Assembly: GCA_963837945.1 (NCBI GenBank)
Contig: CAWIQD010000024.1
Span: 11,469 to 75,468, forward strand
DNA length: 64,000 nucleotides
Reading direction: 5' to 3'
DNA from: an uncultured Acidobacteriota bacterium
GTDB lineage: Bacteria > Acidobacteriota > Thermoanaerobaculia > Multivoradales > DATKCC01
The translations under genes were made by a program, and so were the position numbers. Below the pieces are notes generated by a model. The model did no database searches and was not told where the DNA came from. It saw only the letters and a program-made list of their open reading frames with translations. This document shows, in pieces, positions 24 through 49,019 of this stretch (within the stretch, counting starts at the first letter, position 1; every line of letters begins with the position of its first letter).

Positions 24-2621
24 GTGGAAATCGGCGAGGGACCCTTCGGGGGATTGCGACACGGAGCCGTCGGTCGTCGCATCACTGCCTACCTTCGTGG
101 AAATCGGCGAGGGACCCTTCGGGGGATTGCGACATGCATTGCAGTCGCATCAGCGTAGATCTGCTTCGCGTGGAAATCGGCGAGGGACCCTTCGGGGGAT
201 TGCGACACTTCAACTGCTGGCCGTTTGCACGCTTGGCCTCCGTCGGTGGAAATCGGCGAGGGACCCTTCGGGGGATTGCGACATGCGCGTACCATTAGTC
301 CTGGCGTCGGCGAGCTGCTCGGTGTGGAAATCGGCGAGGGACCCTTCGGGGGATTGCGACCGATCGAGCACCAGGTCGGCCGAGCTCCGCCAGGTCTGCT
401 CGGTGGAAATCGGCGAGGGACCCTTCGGGGGATTGCGACACGTTCAGCGCTCGGTCGTCGAACGCCCTCCGTGATCGTGGAAATCGGCGAGGGACCCTTC
501 GGGGGATTGCGACATCGTTCCGCCAGCGTCGCTGTGACCTGCTGCTCCGTGGAAATCGGCGAGGGACCCTTCGGGGGATTGCGACAGAGACGCGTGCATC
601 CGGCGAGCATCCGCCGCCTCGCGTGGAAATCGGCGAGGGACCCTTCGGGGGATTGCGACACAGCACGCGTCGGACTCTGCGCCCGCACGGCTGCGGTGGA
701 AATCGGCGAGGGACCCTTCGGGGGATTGCGACATCGGTGTACTGTCTGGCATCGATGCGTTACCTCCTGTCAGTGGAAATCGGCGAGGGACCCTTCGGGG
801 GATTGCGACACGACTTGCGGCCGACGGTGATCGCGACCAGTACCATCGAAGTGGAAATCGGCGAGGGACCCTTCGGGGGATTGCGACGCTCTAGAGCCGC
901 CGTGAACATCCGGCGGCTTCGGCCGCGTGGAAATCGGCGAGGGACCCTTCGGGGGATTGCGACATCTGACGTACTTTCGCGGCTATCGACGCACCTCATG
1001 GTGGAAATCGGCGAGGGACCCTTCGGGGGATTGCGACAGCTGCCCGTCGAGTCCGATGATGTCATGATCGAGCACCGTGGAAATCGGCGAGGGACCCTTC
1101 GGGGGATTGCGACTTCAGCAACGACCGCCGGCAGTTGTTCGGTCCTCATGTGGAAATCGGCGAGGGACCCTTCGGGGGATTGCGACATTTGACGAAGTCC
1201 AGACCTGTTTTATTCGCACCTCCGGCTCCAGTGGAAATCGGCGAGGGACCCTTCGGGGGATTGCGACATGCTTCGACGACGGCTTCGTGACAACCTCCTT
1301 CCTTGGTGGAAATCGGCGAGGGACCCTTCGGGGGATTGCGACGCTGCAGGTACTGAGTCGACGATGCATCGCATCCAGCGGTGGAAATCGGCGAGGGACC
1401 CTTCGGGGGATTGCGACATTCCGAAGTTCGCCGGGAACGCGGCAGCCGATCGCGTGGAAATCGGCGAGGGACCCTTCGGGGGATTGCGACATTTCGTGAC
1501 GCTGATCTCCGTCCGGAATGCATGATCTGAGTGGAAATCGGCGAGGGACCCTTCGGGGGATTGCGACTCGCAATTCCTCTGACGCTAGAACATCGCGAGG
1601 ATCGGCGTGGAAATCGGCGAGGGACCCTTCGGGGGATTGCGACGGCCGACGACGCACCATGATGCACTCGACCGGTGTCCTGTGGAAATCGGCGAGGGAC
1701 CCTTCGGGGGATTGCGACATTGCAGTCATGAAGATCATCGGCGACCTCCGTGTTGACTGTGGAAATCGGCGAGGGACCCTTCGGGGGATTGCGACCACAG
1801 AAATTGTCGTCGGGAACACCCACCGGATTGACGTGGAAATCGGCGAGGGACCCTTCGGGGGATTGCGACATGATGACGAGGATCGGGTGATAGCACCACC
1901 ATCATGACGTGGAAATCGGCGAGGGACCCTTCGGGGGATTGCGACATGAAACATCCTTCTTTCCCCCGACTGCCATGATTAGAGTGGAAATCGGCGAGGG
2001 ACCCTTCGGGGGATTGCGACATTGGGGCGACAATGGACTCGTCCATGTCGAAGTCAGAGGTGGAAATCGGCGAGGGACCCTTCGGGGGATTGCGACATCC
2101 GCTTGGTCCTGGCATGTTGCGTTGCTCCCTTCGTGGAAATCGGCGAGGGACCCTTCGGGGGATTGCGACATGTTGGTGCGGTCCATCGGAGTCTCCTTTA
2201 TCTGCCGTGGAAATCGGCGAGGGACCCTTCGGGGGATTGCGACATATACCCCCGCACGGAGTCAGTAACGTTGACCCCGTTAGTGGAAATCGGCGAGGGA
2301 CCCTTCGGGGGATTGCGACATCCGACGGTACCGAGATGAAGCCGGACATGGACGTCTCTGTGGAAATCGGCGAGGGACCCTTCGGGGGATTGCGACACTC
2401 GCGTACTGCCTTCGGGGTCCCCGATGGCGTACTGGTGGAAATCGGCGAGGGACCCTTCGGGGGATTGCGACACTGCGCGGAGAAGCTACTGCATAGCTTC
2501 CCTCCTTAGTCTGTGGAAATCGGCGAGGGACCCTTCGGGGGATTGCGACATCCCAGTCCACGCTGGGCACGCGACCGTCCGAGTGGGTGCAGATCGGCGA
2601 GGCACGTCCGCCGGACTTCGT
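24..2621 (+). CRISPR. CRISPR array 1: 34 copies of the 37-nt repeat GTGGAAATCGGCGAGGGACCCTTCGGGGGATTGCGAC with 33 spacers of 35-44 nt, followed by a degenerate terminal repeat at ~2584-2621
   Basis: I counted repeat ends directly at 60, 133, 206, ... 2549, giving a period of ~73-81 nt. The distal repeat GTGGGTGCAGATCGGCGAGGCACGTCC... is degenerate, which places the leader upstream at the window start. The leader-repeat junction CAAGGACTTGAGAGGGGTGGAG is also found in front of array 2. Confidence 0.95.
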
Positions 2622-2827: not shown

Positions 2828-3058
2828 CTACTCGCCGCCGCGCTTCCGGAGCTCTCGTCTCGCCGCCCGGATCAGGCGATCCCGCGACCACCCGGAGACG
2901 CTCAGGTCGGAGCGCTCCGCCGCTCGGCGCAGGAGCTCCAGGTCCGACTCCCTCATCCGCAGTCGAATCGCCGCCTCGAACCGCTCGGTGGGCCTCTTCT
3001 TGGGGCGAGCCATGGCCGGACTGTAGGCCGATACGATCAGCCCGTCAACCCTTGACAA
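2828..3058 (-). CDS. Small ribbon-helix-helix (RHH, CopG/MobC-like) DNA-binding protein; the alternative start at 3013 gives 61 aa
   Basis: The sequence ARPKKRPTERFEAAIRLRMRESDLELLRRAAERSDLSVSGWSRDRLIRAARREL shows the typical RHH beta-strand plus two helices pattern. Confidence 0.45.
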   Translation of the reverse strand: MSRVDGLIVSAYSPAMARPKKRPTERFEAAIRLRMRESDLELLRRAAERSDLSVSGWSRDRLIRAARRELRKRGGE

Positions 3059-4140
3059 AGGCTTGTTTTTCGGCCTACAATAACCAGATGGTCGATGACC
3101 TGATTCGGGGTGATGGCGCGGGGCGGGAAGGCGGCTCCGGGAGGACCTGTCCCGCGTGCGAGACCCCGGTGATCAAGTACGGCAAGACGGCCGCCGGGCG
3201 CCAGCGGTACTGGTGTCGGAGTTGCCGCAGCACCACGTCGGACGCCGCTCCTCGATCGCCGATCCATCCCATGCGGATTCCGCTCGAGCGCGCGGTGCTG
3301 TGCCTGCGGCTCCTGGTCGAGGGCAGCAGCATCCGGGCGGCCGAGCGGATCACCGGCACCCACCGGGACACGATCGGTCGGCTGCTGCTCCTGGCCGGGG
3401 GGCGGTGCGAGAGGCTCCTCGCCGAGCTGGTGACGGACGTCGAGGTCCACGACGTCGAGACCTCCGAGCTCTGGGCCTTCGTGGGGATGAAGGAGACGAC
3501 CCGGGAGCGGCTGGGCTTGGGCGACCCGCGGGTGGGCGACGCCTACGCGTTTCTCGCCATGGAGCGAGATTCGAAGCTGATCCTCGCCTGGCACCTGGGC
3601 CGGCGCACGGCCGAGCACACGGACGCGTTCGCCGAGAAGCTCGGCCGCGCGACCGCCGGCCGTTTCCAGCTCACGACCAGTGGGCTCGCGGCCTATCGCG
3701 AGGCCGTGAGCTTCCACTTGGGCGAACGCACGGACTACGCGACGCTGGTCAAGGAGGTCGGACCGGGGAAGGGCTCGGACGAGGGCCGCCGGCTGCCTCC
3801 GCGGATCGTGGGCGTGAAGAAGAACCGCGTCCATGGCGATCCGGATCCGGCGCGGGTTTGCACGTCTCACGCCGAGCGCGGAGCGCTGACGTTCCGGATG
3901 CAGTCGCGGCGCTTCACGCGGCGGACGAACGCCTTCTCGAAGTCTTGGAGGCACCACCGTGCGGCCCTGGCGCTCCAGCTCGCTCACTACAACCTCTGCT
4001 GGATGCACGCCTCCATCCGCATGACGCCGGCCATGAAGGCCGGGGTCGTCGGGAGGCCCTGGAAGCTTGAGGAGCTCCTGGCCGACGGGGGATCAGGGCC
4101 CGCGAGCGGGCTCTGATTTCGCCTCGTCGATTCCCGCGAG
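3030..4140 (+). mobile_element. IS1-family insertion sequence (boundaries approximate; imperfect terminal motif ATCAG(AG)CCCG near 3035 and 4120)
   Basis: A single fused InsAB-like transposase ORF. Weak terminal inverted similarity. No clear target-site duplication seen. Confidence 0.45.
3052..4116 (+). CDS. IS1-family transposase (fused InsA zinc-finger/HTH + InsB DDE domain)
   Basis: The N-terminal CPACETPVIKYGKTAAGRQRYWCRSCRST matches the IS1 InsA zinc ribbon (CPSC...NGKSTAGHQRYLCSHCR). The motif ELWAFVGMKE and the C-terminal RRTNAFSKS...HYNLCWMH match InsB motifs. Confidence 0.75.
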   Translation: MTKACFSAYNNQMVDDLIRGDGAGREGGSGRTCPACETPVIKYGKTAAGRQRYWCRSCRSTTSDAAPRSPIHPMRIPLERAVLCLRLLVEGSSIRAAERITGTHRDTIGRLLLLAGGRCERLLAELVTDVEVHDVETSELWAFVGMKETTRERLGLGDPRVGDAYAFLAMERDSKLILAWHLGRRTAEHTDAFAEKLGRATAGRFQLTTSGLAAYREAVSFHLGERTDYATLVKEVGPGKGSDEGRRLPPRIVGVKKNRVHGDPDPARVCTSHAERGALTFRMQSRRFTRRTNAFSKSWRHHRAALALQLAHYNLCWMHASIRMTPAMKAGVVGRPWKLEELLADGGSGPASGL

Positions 4141-4503: not shown

Positions 4504-5225
4504 CACAACAGGCGCCTGTCCCGGAAGGAGGCCCAGCGCTGGGCGCCGCCGAGGATGATGTGGTCCGCGAGCCGGACTCCCACGGCCTCGCACGCCTCCG
4601 CCAGGCGCCGGGTGAAGCGGATGTCTTCTATGGTCGGGGACGGATCGCCCGACGGGTGCGTGTGGAAGACGACCACGCTCTCCGCCGCGCGGTCGAGGGC
4701 GAGAGCGATGATCTGGCGCGGCTCGACCGAGGCTCTCGTCAGCGTGCCGCGGAACAGCTCCGCCATGCCCACGAGCCGCCGCCGGGTGTCGAGGAAGAGG
4801 GCGCCCATCACCTCCTGGTCTCGGAGGACGTAGCGCAGCGCCAAGTAGCGGGCCACCTCGTCTGGCCGCCCCATGGGCTCTCGCTCGGGGACCTCGGCCC
4901 GGGCGAGGCGCCGGGCGAGCTCGAGCGCGGCGAGGACCGAGGCGGCCTTCACCTCGCCCAGGCCGCGGCGCTGGAGGGCCTCGGGGCGGATGCCCACCAG
5001 GCCGGGGAGCCCGGAGGTCTCCTCGAGGATCTCGCGGGCGAGCTCCAGGGAGCAGACGTCGCGCGAGCCGTGGCCCAGGACGAGGGCGAGCACTTCGGGG
5101 TCGGAAAGGGCTTCGCCACCGCTCCGAAGCAGGCGCTGGCGCGGGCGCTCGTCGGGGGGCATCTCCCGGATGAGGCTCGGGAGACCGCTTCTGGAGGGTC
5201 GGGCCCTGGGACGCCGGCGGGCCAT
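4503..5225 (-). CDS. radC: RadC-family JAB/MPN domain protein (UPF0758)
   Basis: Contains the JAMM motif HTHPSGDPSPTIEDIRFTRRL and the conserved RadC N-terminal helix-hairpin region (EVLALVLG). The true start is the internal Met at 5225; the 363-aa track ORF has a spurious N-terminal extension. Confidence 0.85.
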   Translation of the reverse strand: MARRRPRARPSRSGLPSLIREMPPDERPRQRLLRSGGEALSDPEVLALVLGHGSRDVCSLELAREILEETSGLPGLVGIRPEALQRRGLGEVKAASVLAALELARRLARAEVPEREPMGRPDEVARYLALRYVLRDQEVMGALFLDTRRRLVGMAELFRGTLTRASVEPRQIIALALDRAAESVVVFHTHPSGDPSPTIEDIRFTRRLAEACEAVGVRLADHIILGGAQRWASFRDRRLL

Positions 5226-5587
5226 CAGCCGTCCTCCCGGCCGTCGGCCCACTCGGCCCAGTCGGCGAAAGCCGCGGCGAAGTGGCGCTCCAGCTCTTCG
5301 GGCGTCCAGGCGAGGGCCCGGTCGGCGCCGGCGAAGGCGCTGTCCGAGCCCGGCGAGTCCGCCGAGTCCTCGGCGCCGTGGCCCACGACCCAGCAGCGGG
5401 TCGCCTCGGCCGCGAAGAGAATCCGGAAGCGCTCGCGGTCGCCGCCCTCGAGGCCCGTCTCGGCGGGCGGGAGGCAAGAGAGAGTCTCGGCCGCGAGGTG
5501 CAGAAGGCCGAGACCGATGGAGAGGGTGACCCGAAGCTCGTCGTTCGTCGGGTCGGCGGGCGCGATACGATCCCTCAAGCTGCTCAT
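5225..5587 (-). CDS. Hypothetical acidic protein (hypA), first gene of the hypA-radC-hypB operon
   Basis: GAGGAG ribosome-binding site 8 nt upstream of the ATG. Its stop overlaps the radC start (ATGA). No domain recognised. Confidence 0.35.
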   Translation of the reverse strand: MSSLRDRIAPADPTNDELRVTLSIGLGLLHLAAETLSCLPPAETGLEGGDRERFRILFAAEATRCWVVGHGAEDSADSPGSDSAFAGADRALAWTPEELERHFAAAFADWAEWADGREDG

Positions 5588-5982
5588 GAGGCACGCTCCT
5601 CGTGAGTGGTCAGGCCCGGCGGGTCGCTAGCGGCTTCCCGCCGGGCCGCTCCGTGGTTTCCGGGCTCGCATGGCCCCGGCTGTTCGGCCCAACCTACCCC
5701 GCCGTCAAGGCCCAGAGGTAGCCAACACGCCTTTGGGACAGCACTCCTCGTCGCAAGTAGTTGCTCGAAGGGTACGTCTTGCGCTAACCTCCGGGGAGGC
5801 CGAAAACGTGGGGAGGTTAGCGCAGACCCCGGAAAGCGTCGAAGCTCTTTGAAATCAGAGGGTTACCGAGATTCGTCCGGTTCTGGCCTCGCCGGTCTTG
5901 CCCCTCGCCGAGGCCCAGTCTGGGGAGGTTAGCGGAAATGGCCTTCCAACTCACTGAGCCACAAGGACTTGGGAGGGGTGGA
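5588..5982 (+). promoter_or_regulatory. Leader of CRISPR array 2; contains a hairpin GCGCTAACCTCC-N19-GGAGGTTAGCGC (~5781-5823) and a third copy of GGGGAGGTTAGCG at ~5931
   Basis: Non-coding region between the divergent hypA start and the first repeat. Its last 23 nt (CAAGGACTTGGGAGGGGTGGAG) are shared with the array 1 junction. Confidence 0.6.
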
Positions 5983-8900
5983 GTGGAAACCGGCGAGGAA
6001 CCTTTCGAGGGATTGCGACACGAGGCTGCCGAAGATGAGGGTGACTAAGCTCATGAGTGGAAACCGGCGAGGAACCTTTCGAGGGATTGCGACATTCTAC
6101 CGACTCTTTTCAGAGTCTAGGATTTCGCTGTGGAAACCGGCGAGGAACCTTTCGAGGGATTGCGACTGCTCGGAGACGGGATTCATGCACTCTTGCCCTC
6201 CGTGGAAACCGGCGAGGAACCTTTCGAGGGATTGCGACCATTGCGCGACTCCGGCCGCCGCTGTCAGGCTTTCGTGGAAACCGGCGAGGAACCTTTCGAG
6301 GGATTGCGACTACGTCCCTGGCCATCCCTCTCGGCGAACCTGTGGAAACCGGCGAGGAACCTTTCGAGGGATTGCGACCAGTGAGCGTCGACGTCATCCT
6401 TTCTCCGTGGAAACGCAGGTTTCGAGGTGGAAACCGGCGAGGAACCTTTCGAGGGATTGCGACATGTAGCGTGCCGACGATCGAGCTCAGTGCATAGCTC
6501 GGGTGGAAACCGGCGAGGAACCTTTCGAGGGATTGCGACATTGAACTGCGACTCGTCCGCACGAGTCATCTTCCGCTGTGGAAACCGGCGAGGAACCTTT
6601 CGAGGGATTGCGACATGTCTGGGCGTGACGGTCAATCTCCGACTCCTCCTCCGTGGAAACCGGCGAGGAACCTTTCGAGGGATTGCGACCATTGCTCGAT
6701 GCCGGCGTCGCTTTCCGAATTCGAGTGGAAACCGGCGAGGAACCTTTCGAGGGATTGCGACTGTACGACGCCGCGGCCGTTGGTCTCGGCGATCCGGGTG
6801 GAAACCGGCGAGGAACCTTTCGAGGGATTGCGACACTGAAACGTGTCGTCGAGGAATCGGCTATCCTCGCCTGGGTGGAAACCGGCGAGGAACCTTTCGA
6901 GGGATTGCGACATCTTCAGGACACGTCGCGTTCGTGAAGTCGTCGGCTCCTTGTGGAAACCGGCGAGGAACCTTTCGAGGGATTGCGACATGTCCGGAGT
7001 CGGTTCGAGGTCGGCATCGTCACCCTGCGTGGAAACCGGCGAGGAACCTTTCGAGGGATTGCGACATGTCGACTCCTGACCGGCTGACGGGCTGCGATAT
7101 CCTGGGTGGAAACCGGCGAGGAACCTTTCGAGGGATTGCGACGTGATGCACGTCGATCCGATGCAGTCACTGCCGTCTCCGGGGTGGAAACCGGCGAGGA
7201 ACCTTTCGAGGGATTGCGACATCGTCCGACAGGTCGCAGGGCGACTCGTTAGGTGGAAACCGGCGAGGAACCTTTCGAGGGATTGCGACATGTCGATTCC
7301 TGACTCGCTCCGGATGTCGTATGTCCTGTGGAAACCGGCGAGGAACCTTTCGAGGGATTGCGACATGAGAGTCTCCGCGCAGGATGCCGTCTCGTCGAGT
7401 GGAAACCGGCGAGGAACCTTTCGAGGGATTGCGACACTCGAACTCGTCGTCACAGGCCACTGGCGCGTGCTGTGGAAACCGGCGAGGAACCTTTCGAGGG
7501 ATTGCGACATCTCGACGGAACTTGCGCGATCCCGTCGATGCAGTGGAAACCGGCGAGGAACCTTTCGAGGGATTGCGACATCTCAGACGCTGCGTCGCTG
7601 GCATCGCTCGCTGCGTGGAAACCGGCGAGGAACCTTTCGAGGGATTGCGACATCTCGTGGCTTGCATGTCTTCCAATCCTGCTCGACGTGGAAACCGGCG
7701 AGGAACCTTTCGAGGGATTGCGACACTGGATGATCGCTTGTGTTCGTTGATCCTCGTCGAGGTGGAAACCGGCGAGGAACCTTTCGAGGGATTGCGACTT
7801 CAGCGAGGCTTCGCATGACTTAGCATCCTCCGGGTGGAAACCGGCGAGGAACCTTTCGAGGGATTGCGACATTTGCGGCTCCTGCCGAGAGCTCGTTACC
7901 CGAAGTGGAAACCGGCGAGGAACCTTTCGAGGGATTGCGACACTTGACGTGGTCAGGCCGCGAGTCGCCTACTGCGTGGAAACCGGCGAGGAACCTTTCG
8001 AGGGATTGCGACATCTCTGGCACCGCTCGGCGACGGCAGCTCCGTTCATGCGATACCTTGTGGAAACCGGCGAGGAACCTTTCGAGGGATTGCGACCCGA
8101 TGACTGCCAGAGTCTTCCAGAACATCTGCGTTCCGTGGAAACCGGCGAGGAACCTTTCGAGGGATTGCGACATGTCGTCCTGCGCCTGCGTCGGCTTAGT
8201 CGCAGTGTGGAAACCGGCGAGGAACCTTTCGAGGGATTGCGACATTCCGGGCAGTACGCTTTTCTCAGCCTCAACCTTGGGTGGAAACCGGCGAGGAACC
8301 TTTCGAGGGATTGCGACATCGCTCGAGTCGATTCATCTTGGCCTCCTTAAGTGGAAACCGGCGAGGAACCTTTCGAGGGATTGCGACATTCTACGATCCC
8401 GGCTCACTCTTACACGCCCTCCTGTGGAAACCGGCGAGGAACCTTTCGAGGGATTGCGACACGGTCGAGGTCTCGTCGGTGACATGGCCAGTTCTCCACG
8501 TGGAAACCGGCGAGGAACCTTTCGAGGGATTGCGACATACAGGAACTCCCTGTCGACGAGCATGGAGGTCCGAGTGGAAACCGGCGAGGAACCTTTCGAG
8601 GGATTGCGACATCCGAAGGACTGCCCTCGGCCGCGTCGTCGCTGTCTAAGTGGAAACCGGCGAGGAACCTTTCGAGGGATTGCGACACTTGCTGCTGCAC
8701 CCATGGTGCCGCAGCAGACCAGTCGGTGGAAACCGGCGAGGAACCTTTCGAGGGATTGCGACAGCTCTTCCGGGACGCATCCCGAGAAATTCCAACCGAT
8801 CGTGGAAACCGGCGAGGAACCTTTCGAGGGATTGCGACCTTACCTGGCGAAGCGGAGGCCATGCTCTGCGGTCGGGTGGAAACCGGCGAGGAACCTTTCG

Positions 8901-9584
8901 AGGGATTGCGACATTTTTTTCTGCCTCGAGAAGACAAGCGGCTTGCTGTGTGGAAACCGGCGAGGAACCTTTCGAGGGATTGCGACCGTTGTCTCCAACC
9001 GCTCTCCTCCACTCCGTCCACTGAGTGGAAACCGGCGAGGAACCTTTCGAGGGATTGCGACCCATTTCAAGAGAGACCAGTTGACACTGACCCCTCCCGT
9101 GGAAACCGGCGAGGAACCTTTCGAGGGATTGCGACACAATCGTGCGACGGAGAGATCGAAGTGGAGGACTTTCGCCGTGGAAACCGGCGAGGAACCTTTC
9201 GAGGGATTGCGACAGAGACTTGCAGGAATTGGATCATACCATCCTCCTTTTGGGTGGAAACCGGCGAGGAACCTTTCGAGGGATTGCGACTGGTCAGGGC
9301 CTAGGTAGCGGCCGTCGCCGTCGAAGTGGAAACCGGCGAGGAACCTTTCGAGGGATTGCGACAGCTCAACGATGAGTAGTTTCACGACGTCCTCCCGCGG
9401 TGGAAACCGGCGAGGAACCTTTCGAGGGATTGCGACATTGTGCCATCCGGGTGTAGTCCACGCCGTCGCCGGCGCTGGAAACCGGCGAGGAACCTTTCGA
9501 GGGATTGCGACGAGCGCTGGGCGAGCGGTCGATGGTTCCACGTCGAGGTGGAAACCGGCGAGGAACCTTTCGAGGGATTGCGAG
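5983..9584 (+). CRISPR. CRISPR array 2: 49 copies of the 37-nt repeat GTGGAAACCGGCGAGGAACCTTTCGAGGGATTGCGAC with spacers of ~31-43 nt; one 20-nt partial repeat at ~6407-6426; the penultimate repeat has G1->C and the last repeat ends GCGAG
   Basis: Direct counting of repeat ends (6019, 6093, ... 9511, 9584). The repeat differs from the array 1 repeat at 4 of 37 positions (8, 17, 21, 26). The same leader-repeat junction motif precedes it. Confidence 0.95.
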
Positions 9585-23581: not shown

Positions 23582-24382
23582 GTGAGCGAGCCCGAGGTCT
23601 CCATCGTCGTCCCGGCCTACAACGAGGCGGAGAGCCTGCCGGTGCTCGCCCGGGAGATCCGCGAGGCCTTGGGCGGCGCCGGGATCGCGTACGAGGTCCT
23701 CTTCGTCGACGACGGCTCGACCGACTCGACCCCCGAGGTGCTCGCCCGCCTGGCGGCCGAGGACCGGGCGATCCGGGTGCTGCGCCAGCGCCCGAACCGA
23801 GGCCAGTCGGCGGCGCTCGCGGGCGGCTGGCGGCTGGCGCGCGCGCCGGTCGTGGTGACCCTCGACGCCGATCTCCAGAACGACCCGGCGGACATCCCGC
23901 GCCTGCTCCAGGCCCTCGCCGGCTTCGACGTGGTCTCCGGCGTGCGCGTGAAGCGCCAGGACAACTGGCTGCGGCGCCTCTCCTCGCGGATCGCCAACGG
24001 CGTGCGCAACCGCTTGACCGGCGAGTCGGTCACCGACGTCGGCTGCACGCTCCGGGCCTGCCGGACGGAGCTCCTGCGCGAGCTGCCGATGTTCACCGGC
24101 ATGCACCGCTTCCTGCCCACCCTCCTCAAGCTCGCGGGCGCGCGCATCACGGAGGTCCCGGTCGGCCACCGGCCGCGGCGCTTCGGCACGACCAAGTACG
24201 GCATCCACAACCGCCTCTGGCGCGGCCTCGTCGACCTCGCGGCGGTGCGCTGGATGCAGAAGCGCTGGATCGACACGGGGCGGGTCGAAGAGGTGACGCC
24301 GCCCCCCGGCGAGCCGCGGGGAGTCACTCCGCTCCCGGCAGGACCTCGAAGCCGGCGATCCGGAAGTGGTGGTCGAAGGTGA
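23582..24382 (+). CDS. GT2-family polyprenol-phosphate glycosyltransferase (ArnC / DPM1-like)
   Basis: VSIVVPAYNEAESL...VLFVDDGSTDST...TLDADLQNDP motifs. Confidence 0.8.
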   Translation: MSEPEVSIVVPAYNEAESLPVLAREIREALGGAGIAYEVLFVDDGSTDSTPEVLARLAAEDRAIRVLRQRPNRGQSAALAGGWRLARAPVVVTLDADLQNDPADIPRLLQALAGFDVVSGVRVKRQDNWLRRLSSRIANGVRNRLTGESVTDVGCTLRACRTELLRELPMFTGMHRFLPTLLKLAGARITEVPVGHRPRRFGTTKYGIHNRLWRGLVDLAAVRWMQKRWIDTGRVEEVTPPPGEPRGVTPLPAGPRSRRSGSGGRR

Positions 24383-24734
24383 AGGCTCGGCGGAGCTTGC
24401 GCCGCTCCATGAGGACGAACGAGACGCAGTCGGTGAAGCTCACGTCCTGGTCGTGGTAGGTCTCGAAGGAGGCGAGGGCGGCGAGCTCTGCCTCGGCGTC
24501 GGGGCGAATCAGCTCGAGGGCGCGCGACGTATACAGCCGGCGAACGACATCTGCCGCGAAGTGGTGGCCGGCCCGGCGCCCGATGAGCGTCACGGCCTCG
24601 TCGATCACGAAATTGCTCGTCACGCAGCGCTCCCCCGAGCGGCCGATCTCCGCCCAGAAGCCGGAAGCGGCGGCGTGGTGCTGGTCCTTCGCCAGGTGCC
24701 GGCCCAGGAAGGCGCCGGTGTCGACGAAGATCAA
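24324..24734 (-). CDS. vapC: PIN-domain toxin VapC
   Basis: MIFVDTGAF start and the conserved acidic residues. The TTG start overlaps the vapB stop. Confidence 0.75.
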   Translation of the reverse strand: MIFVDTGAFLGRHLAKDQHHAAASGFWAEIGRSGERCVTSNFVIDEAVTLIGRRAGHHFAADVVRRLYTSRALELIRPDAEAELAALASFETYHDQDVSFTDCVSFVLMERRKLRRAFTFDHHFRIAGFEVLPGAE

Positions 24735-24967
24735 CCCCGCTCCCCGTAGAGATAACGGTCGTGCTCTCGAGAGAGGTCTGGAGGTACCGGGCCTTCGAAG
24801 ACCGGAACCTCCGCGAACAGAGGATCGTCCTGCCAGTCCCGCCGCGCATCCAGCCTCCGCTCCAGGGTCTCGCGGATGAGCTCGGCGAGCGAGATTCCCA
24901 GCCTACTCGCGATCTCCTGAGCCCGGAGCTTCAGGTCCTCCGGCAGCATGATGGTGGTTCTCGTCAT
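24731..24967 (-). CDS. vapB: VapB-type antitoxin (RHH/CopG-like)
   Basis: Small protein immediately upstream of vapC with translational coupling. MLPEDLKLRAQEIASRLGISLAELIRETL is RHH-like. Confidence 0.65.
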   Translation of the reverse strand: MTRTTIMLPEDLKLRAQEIASRLGISLAELIRETLERRLDARRDWQDDPLFAEVPVFEGPVPPDLSREHDRYLYGERG

Positions 24968-24977
24968 CGGTCGTGCT

Positions 24978-25258
24978 CCTAGTGGTCTGATTCACAAATC
25001 CCTTGTCTTTCGTTGCGGTGCCGCGCGGCCGGATACCAGGCGCCGCGACGCAGGCGATGCCGAGCCATCGTCGAGGAGCGGCAACGCCGTAGGCGGCCGC
25101 GCGCCGCCGCAACCCGAAGGGCGCAGGGGGATTGCGGGCGTCTCCTGCGTTGCTCGTCGTCGACGATGCTACGGCATCGCCTCCTCCTCTCGCCTTGGAT
25201 CCACTCCGCAAGACCCCTGCGCGAAAGATAAGGGATTCGTGAATCAGACCACTAGTGG
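24978..25258. mobile_element. 281-bp palindromic MITE-like element with 34-35 bp near-perfect terminal inverted repeats (CCTAGTGGTCTGATTCACAAATCCCTTGTCTTTCG ... CGAAAGATAAGGGATTCGTGAATCAGACCACTAGTGG)
   Basis: The arms are rich in A/T relative to the genome. The interior is itself an imperfect palindrome. It starts ~11 bp upstream of the vapB start codon. Confidence 0.55.
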
Positions 25259-25322
25259 TCGACCGCCATAATATCACCGCCATAACCAAGCTGGCGGCCC
25301 GAAATAGGGCTGGCTCGGGGCC

Positions 25323-25871
25323 CTACTCGAACTCTTTGACCGGCGGCGCCTGGTCGCGGCCGACGCGGCCGGTTTCGATCTCGGCCTGGAAGTAGTTCTC
25401 GCCCCGGATGGGCGCGCCGGCGAAGCGGCGGAGCATGGCGATCTGGCCGACGTGCGAGAGGGCGTCGGCGATGGGTCCGCGGAAGATCTTCTCCGCCGGC
25501 AGGCAGCCCTCGTCGGCGGCGGCCAGCGCCTGGTCGAGGCGCTCGAGGGCGGCGAAGAAGCGCTCGACCTCCTCGTCCCAGGAGAGCGGCTCGGCGCCGG
25601 TCCAGCGGTACTCCCCCCGGCTCATCCGGAACGCCCAGTCGAGGAGGTCGCCCACGTGGGCCAGGATCTCGACCGGCGTGCGGGTCGTCTCGCCGGCCCG
25701 GAAGGCGGCGAAGGTGGCGGGCGCGCCGCGGAGCGCCTTGCCGCCGCGGTAGGCGAGGGTGGCGACGGTGTGACGGAGCAGCTCGATCTTGGGGTCGGGC
25801 CGATCGCGTGGGGCGCGGGAGGTGGGCTCGCTCATGCCCCGATCATCTCCCGGCCCGCGCCGCTCGCTCAA
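25323..25871 (-). CDS. DinB/YfiT-like superfamily protein (probable start at MSEPTS ~25835)
   Basis: IELLRHTVATLAYRG...ILAHVGDLLDWAF resembles DinB_2 four-helix metal-binding proteins. Weak. Confidence 0.35.
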   Translation of the reverse strand: MSERRGPGDDRGMSEPTSRAPRDRPDPKIELLRHTVATLAYRGGKALRGAPATFAAFRAGETTRTPVEILAHVGDLLDWAFRMSRGEYRWTGAEPLSWDEEVERFFAALERLDQALAAADEGCLPAEKIFRGPIADALSHVGQIAMLRRFAGAPIRGENYFQAEIETGRVGRDQAPPVKEFE

Positions 25872-33279: not shown

Positions 33280-33588
33280 GTGCCACCCCCTCGTCCTGCC
33301 GGGATGGGGGTGCGGGTGGTCCGGAGCTTCCTCCGTCACGTGGAGGGATAAATGAGCTGCATCCCCCGCGCAGCCGTGTGGACTGCCGCGCCTAGAACCT
33401 TAAGCGCCAAGTGGGTGTCCGCGCCACCGGCCATCAGCGTCCCCGTTCGAGCGGGGCTGGCACAGTCCGGCGGGTGAAGACTCCCTAGTTGTATATGTTG
33501 GTTCTACCATGGGTTGGCCCATCACGAACCACGCAGGGGATGCAAACTCTTCGACCTTCGTCATATCTCTAGGACGGCCACCGGTGGA
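33280..33588 (-). ncRNA. Candidate non-coding RNA region between zapA and rny (possibly 6S/SsrS-like by synteny)
   Basis: A ~310-nt intergenic region with locally reduced GC (...CTAGTTGTATATGTTGGTTCTACCATGG...). 6S RNA commonly lies immediately downstream of zapA. No structure verified. Confidence 0.2.
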
Positions 33589-46824: not shown

Positions 46825-49019
46825 CCCGCGTCGTTCGTTCTCGCCGCCTCGCCGGCCTCGCCCTGGCCGCGACCCTCGTCGCCCTGGCGGGGTGCCATCG
46901 GGGCGGGGCCGACAGCGGCGCCGCCGAGGCGCGGGTTCCCGACGGCACCCCGGTGATCTTGATCTCGGTCGACACCCTGCGCTCGGACCACCTGCCGATG
47001 TACGGCTACGAGAAGATCCAGACCCCGGCGCTCGACGCCCTGCGGGCGGACTCGATCCTGTTCCGCCACGCCTTCAGCCACGTACCGCTGACCCTGCCCT
47101 CGCACGCGTCGATGCTCACCGGGCTCCGGCCGGACCAGCACGGCCTGCGCGGCAACCTCGGCTACCACCTGGACGCGGCGAAGCATCCGTGGCTGCCCCG
47201 GATCCTCAAGCGGCACGGGTACCGGACGGGCGCCGCGGTCTCCGCCTTCGTGCTGCGCGGGCCCACCGGCATCTCCGCCGACTTCGACTTCTACGACGAC
47301 CACATCCGCCGGAGCAGCTGGAACCTCGCCAGCGCCCAGCGCCAGGGCGACGAGACCCTGGCGGCGGTCGAGCCTTGGGTCGCGTCGGTCCACGACCAGC
47401 CCTTCTTCCTCTTCTTCCACATCTACGAGCCCCACCGCCCCTGGGACCCGCCGGAGCCCTTCGCCTCGCGCTACCCGCTCGGCTACGACGCCGAGATCGC
47501 GTCGGCCGACGCCGTCGTCGGCCGGCTGCTCGACCAGCTCGAGCGCCTCGGCGTCTACGACCGGGCGATCATCTTCTTCGTCTCCGATCACGGCGAGGGC
47601 CTCGGAGAGCACGGCTACCAGGAGCACGGGCCGCTGCTCTACCGCGAGGCGCTCGAGGTGCCGATGCTCGTGAAGCTCCCCGGCGGCGCGCGCGGCGGAA
47701 CGACCCGCGACGCTCCGGCTCAGCTCACCGACCTGGTGCCGACCGTGCTCTCCCTGCTGGGCATCGCGGCGCCCGAGGGCCTCGCCGGCCGCTCGCTCCT
47801 GAGCGCGGACCAGGCCGCGGACGAGGCCCAGCGGCCGATCTTCGCCGAGACCCAGTTTCCCCGCATCCACTTCGGTTGGAGCGAGCTCACCTCGGTGATC
47901 GACTACCCGTATCACCTGATCCAGGGCCCCGACCCGGAGCTCTACGACCTCGAGAGCGACCCCGGGGAAACGCACAACGTCATCCGCCAGGAGCGCCGGA
48001 CCTACGCCAGGCTGCGCGACGACCTGAAGCAGTACGACGGCGCGTTCCAGCCACCGGACCAGACCGACGACCCCGCGGTGCGTGCTCAGCTCGCCGCCCT
48101 CGGCTACGTCGGCTCGGTGGGCAACCGGAGCTCCGAGTCCCTCGCCGACCCGAAGTCGAGACTCCAGGTTCTCCACGACCTCGGCAAGGGTCTGGACCTG
48201 TCCGAAGCCGGCGATTTCGAGCCGGCGGTCGAGCTCTACCGGCGGGTTCTCGAGCAGGAGCCTCAGCTCGTCGATGCCTGGGAGTACCTGGGCAACAGCC
48301 TCCTGCGCATGGGGCGGGCTGAGGAGGCGCTCGACGCCTTCGACCACCAGATCAAGCTCTCCGGCGGCTCGCCCTATGCGTCCTTCACGATGGCCCAGTG
48401 CCTGGTGCGGCTCGGGCGCTACGGCGAGGCGAAGAACCTCGCCCTCCTCGCCGCCGGGGAGTACCACCAGGCCTACGACCTGCTGGCCCAGATCGCGATC
48501 AAGCAGGGAGACTTCGCCGCCGCCGAGACCTACGTCGAGAAGGCGCTCGCCGACGACCCCGACCAGCCCGCCTTCCGGATCACCCACGCCGAGCTGCTCC
48601 TGCGCCAGGGCCACCCCGACCAGGCCCTGAAGGTCACGCAGGACGTGGACGCGGCGGTGCGTGGCGAGCACTTCGACTCCGAGCTCATCCACGGCCTCTA
48701 CTACATCCAGGGAGAGTCCTACGCCCAGCTCGGCCGGGGGGCCGAGGCGATCGCGGCACTGCGCCGGGAGATCGGGCTCTTCCCCCACGAGCTGGCCGCC
48801 TATACCCGGCTGGCGGTCGTCTACGCGCTCTCCGGCCAGGGAGGCCAGGTGGGCGACGTGCTGCACCGGCTGGTCGAGAGCAACGACAATCCCGCCGCCT
48901 ACGCCGAGGCGGCCCACACCCTCCAAGTGCTGGGTGACTCGGCCTCCGCCCGGAAGCTGCTGGAGGCCGCCCGACGCCGCTGGCCGGACGCTCCGGCTCT
49001 CCGGGAGAAGACGGGTTGA
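46821..49019 (+). CDS. Sulfatase-like hydrolase/transferase + TPR lipoprotein, paralog 2
   Basis: GTG start overlapping the previous stop. Lipobox LAGC. ILISVDTLRSDHL...HVPLTLPSHASMLTG...VSDHGEGLGEHG. Confidence 0.6.
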   Translation: MTRVVRSRRLAGLALAATLVALAGCHRGGADSGAAEARVPDGTPVILISVDTLRSDHLPMYGYEKIQTPALDALRADSILFRHAFSHVPLTLPSHASMLTGLRPDQHGLRGNLGYHLDAAKHPWLPRILKRHGYRTGAAVSAFVLRGPTGISADFDFYDDHIRRSSWNLASAQRQGDETLAAVEPWVASVHDQPFFLFFHIYEPHRPWDPPEPFASRYPLGYDAEIASADAVVGRLLDQLERLGVYDRAIIFFVSDHGEGLGEHGYQEHGPLLYREALEVPMLVKLPGGARGGTTRDAPAQLTDLVPTVLSLLGIAAPEGLAGRSLLSADQAADEAQRPIFAETQFPRIHFGWSELTSVIDYPYHLIQGPDPELYDLESDPGETHNVIRQERRTYARLRDDLKQYDGAFQPPDQTDDPAVRAQLAALGYVGSVGNRSSESLADPKSRLQVLHDLGKGLDLSEAGDFEPAVELYRRVLEQEPQLVDAWEYLGNSLLRMGRAEEALDAFDHQIKLSGGSPYASFTMAQCLVRLGRYGEAKNLALLAAGEYHQAYDLLAQIAIKQGDFAAAETYVEKALADDPDQPAFRITHAELLLRQGHPDQALKVTQDVDAAVRGEHFDSELIHGLYYIQGESYAQLGRGAEAIAALRREIGLFPHELAAYTRLAVVYALSGQGGQVGDVLHRLVESNDNPAAYAEAAHTLQVLGDSASARKLLEAARRRWPDAPALREKTG

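What the first reader, a model, noticed from the sequence alone, without database searches (positions are those of the whole stretch)
24978..25258. 281-bp palindromic MITE-like element inserted ~11 bp upstream of the vapB start codon; its interior contains an 11-mer identical to the CRISPR repeat 3' region
The 34-35 bp terminal inverted repeats are near-perfect (2 mismatches) and A/T-rich relative to the genome. The interior is itself an imperfect palindrome, so the whole element can fold into one long hairpin. It replaces the region where a vapBC autoregulated promoter-operator would normally sit. The interior includes CAGGGGGATTGCGGGCG, which shares GGGGGATTGCG with the array 1 repeat; this may be chance. 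The element could be:
- a non-autonomous transposable element (MITE)
- a structured RNA
- a remnant of a hairpin-recognising integration event (IS200/IS605-like, as used by TnpB/IscB systems, none of which are present here)
Basis: seen in the sequence. Interest (0 to 1): 0.6.

Follow-up and report, generated by a model that had tools for sequence, protein, structure and literature searches.

The report
Mobile palindromic repeat upstream of vapBC
The 277-bp palindrome in front of the vapBC toxin-antitoxin genes is one copy of a previously undescribed small, protein-less transposable element (a MITE) that occurs many times in related uncultured Acidobacteriota; it is an ordinary kind of element, with the odd feature that its folded core is better conserved than its ends.

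Summary
Window 24979-25255 (277 bp) has 34-nt terminal inverted repeats with 2 mismatches. These are 44% G+C in a 70.6% G+C window, and the element lies 11 nt upstream of the vapB ATG.

It is not a local operator. Near-full-length copies, 89-97% identical, lie in unrelated intergenic sites of at least three Acidobacteriota/Thermoanaerobaculia MAGs and several metagenomes. Thirteen of 16 complete copies are bounded by CTAG on both sides, a tetranucleotide about 13-fold under-represented in the window. In at least six copies this CTAG contains the neighbouring gene's TAG stop codon.

Homologous vapBC loci lack the element. They carry a conserved motif, GTTATGGCGnTGnTATTATGGCG, which survives intact 8 bp beyond the element here. 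So the element was inserted into the 5' leader and did not replace the promoter/operator.

The 11-mer shared with the CRISPR repeat is a private G>A change of this copy, so it is chance.

Best reading: a new MITE family with a TA or CTAG duplication at CTAG. No autonomous partner was found.

One feature is unusual. Diverged relatives keep a Y-shaped core supported by compensatory changes, while their inverted repeats diverge faster than the core.

Interest is moderate.

The parts
24979..24982 (.). Left flanking CTAG. This is either the target-site duplication itself or its central TA is. On the minus strand its C also belongs to the vapB Shine-Dalgarno sequence CTAGGAG.
   Evidence: CTAG occurs only 13 times in the 64-kb window against 172 expected
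24983..25011 (.). Terminal inverted repeat at the A end (TGGTCTGATTCACAAATCCCTTGTCTTTC), the outer stem of the fold.
   Evidence: 21 of its 31 pairs show changes on both sides across the family
25012..25113 (.). Internal hairpin domain A, an imperfect palindrome whose basal arms are 25012-25036 and 25089-25113.
   Evidence: I5; helices at columns 144-258 of alignment A5
25114..25120 (.). Centre of symmetry: an invariant CCC/GGG mini-stem with a variable 3-nt loop (CCCGAAGGG here).
25121..25222 (.). Internal hairpin domain B, whose basal arms are 25121-25137 and 25206-25222. It holds the invariant purine-rich block GAGGAGGAGGCGATG (minus strand) and the chance 11-mer at 25126.
   Evidence: I9
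25223..25251 (.). Terminal inverted repeat at the B end (reverse complement TGGTCTGATTCACGAATCCCTTATCTTTC).
25252..25255 (.). Right flanking CTAG.
25263..25287 (-). Displaced vapBC promoter/operator candidate. The minus strand reads GGTTATGGCGGTGATATTATGGCGG, with two TTATGGCG direct repeats 14 bp apart and an extended -10-like TGATATTAT. Its function is inferred, not shown.
   Evidence: The motif is conserved upstream of vapB in L041-L045. VapB is RHH-like, E = 0.00093, just below the Pfam cut-off. The generic promoter scan found nothing.
24731..24967 (-). vapB (78 aa, ribbon-helix-helix-like antitoxin), the gene whose leader carries the insertion.
24324..24734 (-). vapC (136 aa, PIN-domain toxin).

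Best explanation
Window 24979-25255 is one copy of a multi-copy, protein-less DNA transposon of the MITE type.

The family has inverted repeats of about 33 nt. It inserts at the rare tetranucleotide CTAG, often the C+TAG of a stop codon, and duplicates either the central TA or the whole CTAG. Because it carries no gene, it must be moved in trans by a transposase encoded elsewhere. That step is inferred. Going by target preference, an IS630/Tc1-mariner-like or IS5-like DDE enzyme is the most likely candidate, but none was found.

In this genome the copy landed in the leader of the vapBC operon, between the conserved promoter/operator motif and the ribosome-binding site. Any vapBC transcript from the native promoter must therefore read through a very stable 277-nt fold placed immediately 5' of the Shine-Dalgarno sequence. 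The effect on expression is inferred and untested.

The family's Y-shaped core is conserved, which suggests that the fold itself matters for the element. The way it matters is unknown.
For: SHOWN
- Multiplicity: the terminal 21-mer occurs in 23 loci of three Acidobacteriota/Thermoanaerobaculia MAGs (plus two chance coding hits, L008 and L024), often at contig ends of the short-read MAG. It also occurs in 13 contigs of the metagenome collection, besides two chance hits.
- Full-length copies, 277-289 bp and 89-97% identical over their whole length, sit in unrelated flanks: L002, L003, L007, L010, L023, L047.
- Deletion or fold-back derivatives keep the ends: L015, L016, L017.
- Flanks: 13 of 16 complete copies have CTAG on both sides, and most single ends do too. 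CTAG is 13 observed against 172 expected in the window.
- L055 has TTAG...CTAT flanks, so only TA is shared between its two sides.
- All examined copies are intergenic. In L010, L016, L017, L018, L023 and L048 the CTAG overlaps a TAG stop codon.
- Empty homologous sites: vapBC loci with 80-93% identical VapC lack the element. With the element and one CTAG removed, the window reads GGTTATGGCGGTGATATTATGGCGGTCGACCACTAGGAGCACGACCGATG, against ggttatggcggtgatattatggcggtcgacgccgaggaggaggagcccATG in L042. That leaves 17 versus 18 nt between GGTCGAC and the ATG.
- No Rfam family matches.

FROM THE LITERATURE
- IS630 inserts at TA within CTAG (Tenzen and Ohtsubo 1991, as listed in PMC2170065).
- The IS5-derived MITEPsy1 duplicates CTAG or YTAA (PMC3189936).
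Against: - No autonomous element with matching inverted repeats was found in any fetched locus, in the window, or in the plasmid or viral collections. The transposase family is therefore a guess.
- CTAG is a palindrome, so a target duplication cannot be formally told apart from CTAG being the outermost part of the inverted repeat. The TA reading rests on a single copy (L055).
- No strictly orthologous empty site from the same species was available. The vapBC comparisons come from other metagenomes.
- The inverted repeats evolve faster than the core: 73% versus 94% identity in L058, and 47% versus 78% in L048. This is the reverse of what is usual for MITEs.
- The interior shows 15 compensatory pairs, which simple trans-mobilisation does not explain.
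Confidence: 0.8

Rival explanations
1. A hairpin-dependent single-strand DNA element, REPIN/RAYT-like or IS200/IS605-like. A Y1 (HUH) transposase would recognise the folded arms and cut at a fixed tetranucleotide, here CTAG at both ends. Under this reading CTAG is a cleavage tag and not a target duplication.
For: - The structure is conserved while the stem sequence changes freely. The outer stem has 21 of 31 pairs with double changes, and the interior has 15 of 70.
- The only constant terminal feature across variants whose inverted repeats barely align is the flanking tetranucleotide.
- Tag-plus-palindrome repeat superfamilies (GTAG, CGTC) are known (PMC3733652, title and abstract seen).
- Fold-back variants such as L016 show that arms can be re-templated.
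Against: - REPs are 20-40 nt according to that abstract, whereas this element is 277 bp with 33-nt perfect-type terminal repeats.
- No Y1 transposase, TnpB or IscB gene was seen next to any copy or among the window ORFs tested.
- The L055 flanks (TTAG/CTAT) fit a TA duplication better than a fixed CTAG tag.
- The IS200/IS605 family (my own knowledge) has no terminal inverted repeats and has different left and right cleavage sites.
Confidence: 0.08
2. Primarily a structured RNA (cis-regulatory or small RNA) that happens to be dispersed. The conserved Y-shaped fold would act at the RNA level, for example as a processing or stability element at gene ends and leaders.
For: - The Y-shaped consensus fold has 95% of cells paired and 36 of 101 pairs compensatory. 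No shuffle out of 500 reached these values, and slid controls gave 35-47% paired. The same fold is obtained with 9 sequences, with 48 of 102 pairs compensatory.
- Invariant unpaired blocks are present.
- Copies sit at gene 3' ends and in a 5' leader, where they would be transcribed.
Against: - No Rfam family matches even at E <= 10.
- The fold is equally predicted on both strands.
- The G-U versus A-C asymmetry is weak and biased by the prediction method: 10 versus 6 interior positions.
- Orientation relative to neighbouring genes is mixed in the few copies examined.
- A 33-bp perfect outer stem with duplicated flanks is a transposon signature.
- There are no expression data.
Confidence: 0.07
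3. A local palindromic operator or regulatory region specific to this vapBC locus.
For: Only its position, directly upstream of vapB.
Against: - Dozens of copies lie elsewhere.
- Homologous vapBC loci lack it and carry their own conserved motif, which is also present here outside the element.
Confidence: 0.01
4. A CRISPR-related sequence: a repeat-derived element or a spacer target, because of the shared 11-mer.
For: GGGGGATTGCG is shared with the array-1 repeat.
Against: - The family consensus is GGGGGGTTGCG, so the match arises from one private substitution.
- Similarity does not extend beyond the 11 nt.
- Comparable 11-12-mers shared with the repeat occur at 48137 and 56549.
- No spacer matches the element.
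Confidence: 0.01

Closest known systems
Bacterial MITEs mobilised by IS630/Tc1-mariner-type transposases (TA duplication; IS630 itself prefers TA within CTAG)
   Same: Small, non-coding, with long inverted repeats, multi-copy and intergenic. The flanks are C-TA-G, and one copy (L055) shares only TA between its two flanks (target preference cited).
   Different: No IS630-family partner with matching ends was identified. The inverted repeats were not compared with ISfinder entries. The core is conserved more strongly than the inverted repeats.
MITEPsy1 of Pseudomonas syringae (IS5-family derived, 100 nt, duplicates CTAG or YTAA; PMC3189936)
   Same: A MITE whose insertions are bounded by CTAG.
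   Different: MITEPsy1 is 100 nt with 18-nt inverted repeats starting GGAAGG. The sequence is unrelated and it has no Y-shaped core. A 4-nt duplication is not distinguishable here from a TA duplication.
Correia elements (CREE/NEMIS) of Neisseria (my own knowledge)
   Same: They behave similarly: TA-flanked, hairpin-forming MITEs that land next to genes, are co-transcribed and can alter expression.
   Different: Correia elements are about 100-155 bp, are restricted to Neisseria and are unrelated in sequence. No outward promoter was detected in this element.
REP/REPIN elements with RAYT transposases; tagged palindromic repeats (PMC3733652)
   Same: Palindromic extragenic repeats defined by a structure plus a fixed tetranucleotide at the end.
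   Different: The tag here is CTAG, not GTAG or CGTC. This element is about 10 times longer, and no RAYT gene was seen.

Membership tests
MITE (non-autonomous class II element) | Small size (about 50-800 bp) and no coding capacity for a transposase | tested here: met
   The element is 277 bp. Copies differ by 11-, 12- and 24-bp indels. Database ORFs over it have no Pfam domain.
MITE (non-autonomous class II element) | Terminal inverted repeats of at least 10-15 bp | tested here: met
   34 nt, 94% complementary. Arm complementarity is 79-94% in all variants.
MITE (non-autonomous class II element) | Short target-site duplication flanking each copy | tested here: inconclusive
   CTAG lies on both sides in 13 of 16 complete copies. 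L055 shares only TA. Because CTAG is palindromic, a duplication cannot be separated from the end of the repeat without same-strain empty sites.
MITE (non-autonomous class II element) | Many copies in different genomic contexts, with presence/absence at homologous sites | tested here: met
   Searches show the copies. vapBC homologues lack the element. No same-species empty site was available.
MITE (non-autonomous class II element) | An autonomous IS with the same inverted repeats in the same or related genomes | tested here: not met
   None was found in the fetched loci, the window, or the plasmid or viral collections. Whole host genomes could not be scanned.
IS630/Tc1-mariner-mobilised element | TA duplication, with a preferred CTAG context | tested here: inconclusive
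   All flanks are consistent with it. Only L055 discriminates, and it favours TA.
IS200/IS605-derived element (PATE) | Subterminal hairpins without terminal inverted repeats, no duplication, different left and right cleavage tetranucleotides, associated TnpA/TnpB | tested here: not met
   The element has long terminal inverted repeats and identical flanks. No TnpA or TnpB gene was seen in the window ORFs tested or in the three loci with precomputed annotation.
REP/REPIN | 20-40-nt palindromes tagged GTAG or CGTC, with an associated RAYT gene | tested here: not met
   The size and the tag both differ. No RAYT gene was seen. The defining features are taken from the abstract of PMC3733652.
Known RNA families (Rfam 15) | Match to a covariance model | tested here: not met
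   No hit at gathering score. Only noise appeared at E <= 10.

The most novel reading that the evidence does not exclude
The roughly 200-nt Y-shaped core is a functional module in its own right. It could be a structure-specific signal for an unrecognised mode of mobilisation, or an RNA or DNA element useful to the host at gene boundaries. On this reading the core has been retained across a broad, largely uncultured set of bacteria while its terminal repeats turned over or were swapped, so the family would not be an ordinary IS-deletion MITE. The evidence does not exclude this: the inverted repeats diverge faster than the core, interior pairs covary, 53 diverged protein-level clusters cover the core, and copies occur in contigs of about 50% G+C.
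Probability: 0.2. Interest if true: 0.65.

Novelty: new member of a known kind. Interest (0 to 1): 0.4.

Why it matters
For annotation, this is a repeat family of uncultured Thermoanaerobaculia and relatives that breaks short-read assemblies, since many copies end contigs. It also generates spurious ORFs in protein databases.

For biology, it illustrates a 'safe-site' strategy. In a 70% G+C genome the rare CTAG is found largely at C+TAG stop codons and in leaders. Insertions therefore land at gene boundaries and regenerate the stop codon.

For this locus, it places a very stable fold between the vapBC promoter/operator and the ribosome-binding site. This is a testable natural perturbation of toxin-antitoxin autoregulation.

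If the conserved core proves to be functional, the family would be a useful case of a mobile structured module whose ends evolve faster than its interior.

Tried and rejected
- Autonomous partner. I inspected ORFs next to solo or truncated ends in L004, L013, L018, L028, L034 and L038 and the gene calls of L047, L055 and L058. No transposase was found. Pfam was run on 27 window ORFs. The only transposase-like gene is an IS1-like ORF at 3052-4116, which shares no inverted repeat with the element.
- Plasmid collection. The whole element and two inverted-repeat variants gave nothing meaningful.
- Viral contigs. Two invariant core motifs gave either nothing or chance hits inside phage genes.
- Chance hits. 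L008, L024, L036 and L040 from the inverted-repeat scans are matches inside a large coding gene (KGFVNQT) or otherwise by chance. They are not family members.
- Source genome. An exact look-up of the window's VapB found nothing on record, and the window's own copy was not among the genome-collection hits. The source genome is apparently not in those collections.
- Generic promoter/terminator scan of 24600-25600: no sites, so no outward promoter can be claimed.
- Single-long-hairpin model. It has lower pairing (85.5% against 95.3%) and only 6 interior compensatory pairs, so it is not the best consensus. L047's changes do, however, support cross-arm pairing of the two hairpin loops.
- Strand of a putative RNA. 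The G-U versus A-C count is not decisive.
- Similarity of the terminus to the IS3-family ISPsy24 repeat (shared TAGTGGTCT). I noted this as a lead only, because it could be chance.
- CRISPR link: rejected.

Full report
**1. What is in the sequence**

Window 24979-25255 is a 277-bp element.
- It is bounded by CTAG on each side and has 34-nt inverted termini with two mismatches, at 24979-25012 and 25222-25255.
- The 26-nt terminal sequence occurs nowhere else in the 64-kb window, against 0.00 expected.
- The termini are 44% G+C in a window of 70.6%.
- The element lies on the plus strand between the stop of a DinB-like ORF (25323-25871, minus strand; weak DinB_2 match) and the start of vapB. vapB is at 24731-24967 on the minus strand and is RHH-like. 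It is followed by vapC at 24324-24734, a PIN-domain protein.
- The left boundary is 11 nt from the vapB ATG. On the minus strand the junction reads CTAGGAGCACGACCGATG, so the vapB Shine-Dalgarno sequence overlaps the flanking CTAG.
- Either strand folds far better than shuffled controls. The z-score is -12.4 and -11.3 as RNA and -9.6 as DNA.

**2. It is a dispersed repeat, not a local feature**

A scan of one genome per species for the terminal 21-mer returned 25 loci.
- Twenty-three lie in three Acidobacteriota/Thermoanaerobaculia MAGs. Two (L008, L024) are a chance match inside a large coding gene.
- In the short-read MAG most matches sit at contig ends, as expected for a repeat that breaks assemblies.
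- Six loci hold full-length copies of 277-289 bp that are 89-97% identical to the window copy over their whole length, each with unrelated flanks: L002, L003, L007, L010, L023 and later L047.
- Shorter derivatives keep the ends. L017 is 190 bp. L015 is about 100 bp. L016 is a fold-back with two A-type ends.
- The metagenome scan added 13 contigs, and two further hits (L036, L040) are chance matches. No copy is adjacent to a transposase.
- The window's own genome is not in these collections.

**3. Flanks and target**

Thirteen of 16 complete copies have CTAG on both sides, and most single ends do too.
- CTAG occurs 13 times in the window against 172 expected from base composition, whereas GATC occurs 456 times. 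The flanks are therefore highly non-random.
- The exceptions are single-base variants (CGAG, CTGG) and L055. L055's flanks are TTAG and CTAT, so only TA is common to both sides.
- Because CTAG is its own reverse complement, a 4-bp duplication, a TA duplication within C-TA-G, and CTAG as the outermost part of the repeat all give the same sequence. L055 favours TA.
- Both behaviours are documented. IS630 inserts at TA in CTAG (references listed in PMC2170065). The IS5-derived MITEPsy1 duplicates CTAG or YTAA (PMC3189936).
- No ORF with coding-like codon-position composition spans any examined copy. In L010, L016, L017, L018, L023 and L048 the flanking CTAG contains the TAG stop codon of the adjacent gene.

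**4. What it did to vapBC**

VapC homologues of 80-93% identity were found and their contigs fetched.
- None has the element upstream of vapB.
- All carry GTTATGGCGnTGnTATTATGGCG, ending 15-24 nt before the vapB ATG. This motif holds two TTATGGCG direct repeats and an extended -10-like TGnTATTAT.
- The same motif is intact in the window at 25263-25287, 8 bp beyond the element.
- With the element and one CTAG removed, the window sequence has the same layout as L042. The distance from GGTCGAC to the ATG is 17 nt in the window and 18 nt in L042.

So the element did not replace the promoter/operator. It was inserted into the leader, a few nucleotides downstream of where transcription would be expected to start. 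That start position is an inference, and the generic promoter scan found nothing. Both vapB and vapC remain intact.

The effect on expression is inferred only. The fold might be processed, might block transcription or might mask the Shine-Dalgarno sequence.

**5. The CRISPR 11-mer**

GGGGGATTGCG at 25126 matches the array-1 repeat.
- The seven other aligned copies read GGGGGGTTGCG at that position.
- The match does not extend beyond the 11 nt.
- 11-12-mers shared with the repeat also occur at 48137 and 56549.
- No spacer matches the element.

This is chance.

**6. A wider family with a conserved core**

I translated the element and searched protein databases for spurious ORFs laid over it. This recovered further copies.
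- Fifty-three clusters at 50% identity match, mostly to the core.
- Contigs fetched for some of these hits hold elements of 256-278 bp that share the central roughly 200 nt but have different termini. They are flanked by CTAG, except L055 (TTAG/CTAT):
  - L058: TGGTCTGAGTCAGAAGTCC...
  - L050: TGTGGTGAGTCAGAAGTTCGAC...
  - L056: TGTCCTGATTCATAAGTACG..., in a contig of visibly lower G+C (roughly 50% by eye)
  - L048, L049 and L055: GAGCCTGTCCGGGAAATAG...
- Identity to the window copy, inverted repeats versus core, is 73% against 94% in L058, about 61% against 77% in L050, and 47% against 78% in L048. Within each copy the two arms remain 82-94% complementary.

So the ends co-vary and evolve faster than the interior, the opposite of the usual MITE pattern.

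**7. Structure**

With the diverged members, RNAalifold gives the same architecture on either strand. An outer stem formed by the inverted repeats encloses two internal hairpin domains (window 25012-25113 and 25121-25222). Between them lies a CCC-NNN-GGG mini-hairpin.

| Model | Cells paired | Pairs with changes on both sides |
|---|---|---|
| Y-shaped fold, 8 sequences | 95.3% | 36 of 101 |
| Y-shaped fold, interior only | 95.7% | 15 of 70 |
| Y-shaped fold, 9 sequences | not counted | 48 of 102 |
| Single long hairpin | 85.5% | 26 of 109 (6 of them interior) |

- For the Y-shaped fold, none of 500 shuffles reached the observed values, and slid controls gave 35-47% paired.
- The single long hairpin fits less well. 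L047's five double changes do, however, keep the loops of the two domains complementary to each other.
- Caveats: the sample is small, the sequences are related, and the structure was derived from the same alignment.
- G-U versus A-C counts do not identify a transcribed strand.
- Orientation relative to neighbouring genes is mixed.
- No Rfam family matches.

**8. Interpretation**

The element meets the operational definition of a MITE. It is small and non-coding, has inverted repeats, has short constant flanks, occurs in many copies in different contexts, and is absent from homologous sites.

The missing piece is the autonomous partner. The only transposase-like gene in the window is an IS1-like ORF at 3052-4116 between the CRISPR arrays. 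It has no matching ends and would be expected to make 8-9-bp duplications (my own knowledge).

I therefore file it as a new MITE family at confidence 0.8, with the transposase family left open. IS630-like is favoured by TA/CTAG, and IS5-like is possible.

The rivals are as follows.
- A Y1/HUH hairpin-dependent element with CTAG as a cleavage tag (0.08).
- A primarily RNA-level element (0.07).
- A local operator. Refuted.
- A CRISPR-related sequence. Refuted.

**9. Novelty and score**

This is a new member of a known kind, and interest is moderate (0.4). A MITE in an uncultured Acidobacteriota lineage is not surprising. Three features are worth a specialist's second look:
- the stop-codon/CTAG 'safe-site' targeting in a high-G+C genome;
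- the insertion between a toxin-antitoxin operator and its ribosome-binding site;
- above all, the conserved Y-shaped core with faster-evolving ends.

The most novel reading not excluded is that the core is a functional structured module that outlives its ends. I put its probability at about 0.2 and its interest, if true, at about 0.65.

Noticed in passing
window 3052-4116 (+), with neighbouring ORF 4560-5630 (+): A 354-aa ORF between the two CRISPR arrays resembles IS1-family transposases. NCBIfam transpos_IS1 scores E = 2.9e-18, below its cut-off. The IS1/IS1595 zinc-binding domain scores 1.6e-10, above its cut-off. Pfam Zn_ribbon_InsA scores 3.4e-5. The neighbouring 356-aa ORF matches no family. 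No convincing inverted repeats were found for this gene, and it shares none with the palindromic element.
   Followed up: partly
L003:3608-3860; also L012, L015, L020, L027 and L041 (about 70 nt upstream of the vapB operator motif): A second repeat family has the terminus TGAAGCTCCGCCTCAAACCGACG and is also flanked by CTAG or CTGG. It directly abuts copies of the first element in several loci. This suggests that several CTAG-targeting repeats pile up at the same rare sites.
   Followed up: partly
window, whole; CTAG at 891, 1585, 5627, 6117, 9301, 10386, 24979, 25252, 33392, 33485, 33569, 40027, 57235: CTAG is about 13-fold under-represented (13 observed, 172 expected). Three of the 13 sites cluster in or next to the 6S RNA gene (33359-33542, minus strand).
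   Followed up: no
window 25263-25287 (minus strand); L041-L045 upstream of vapB: The motif GTTATGGCGnTGnTATTATGGCG is conserved upstream of this vapBC subfamily. It has two 8-nt direct repeats 14 bp apart overlapping an extended -10-like TGnTATTAT. It is probably the RHH-VapB operator plus promoter.
   Followed up: partly
window 24-2552 and 6130-9583: There are two long CRISPR arrays with related but different 37-nt repeats: ...CCCTTCGGGGGATTGCGAC and ...CCTTTCGAGGGATTGCGAC. No cas domain was found among the window ORFs I tested with Pfam.
   Followed up: no
L004:4677-5081; L034:220-271 beside ORFs 428-766 and 750-986: Truncated copies of the element lie inside or next to other small ORFs that look, by eye only, like toxin-antitoxin genes (a DUF433-like ORF in L004, a MazF/PemK-like pair in L034). 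In L004 a called protein (P0128) reads through the fragment. With so few cases the association may be coincidental.
   Followed up: no
L008:5489-5510, L024:540-561: A 22-nt exact match to the element's terminus lies inside a 1891-aa surface-protein-like gene of other Acidobacteria, where it encodes KGFVNQT. There are no CTAG flanks and no further similarity, so I treated it as chance.
   Followed up: yes
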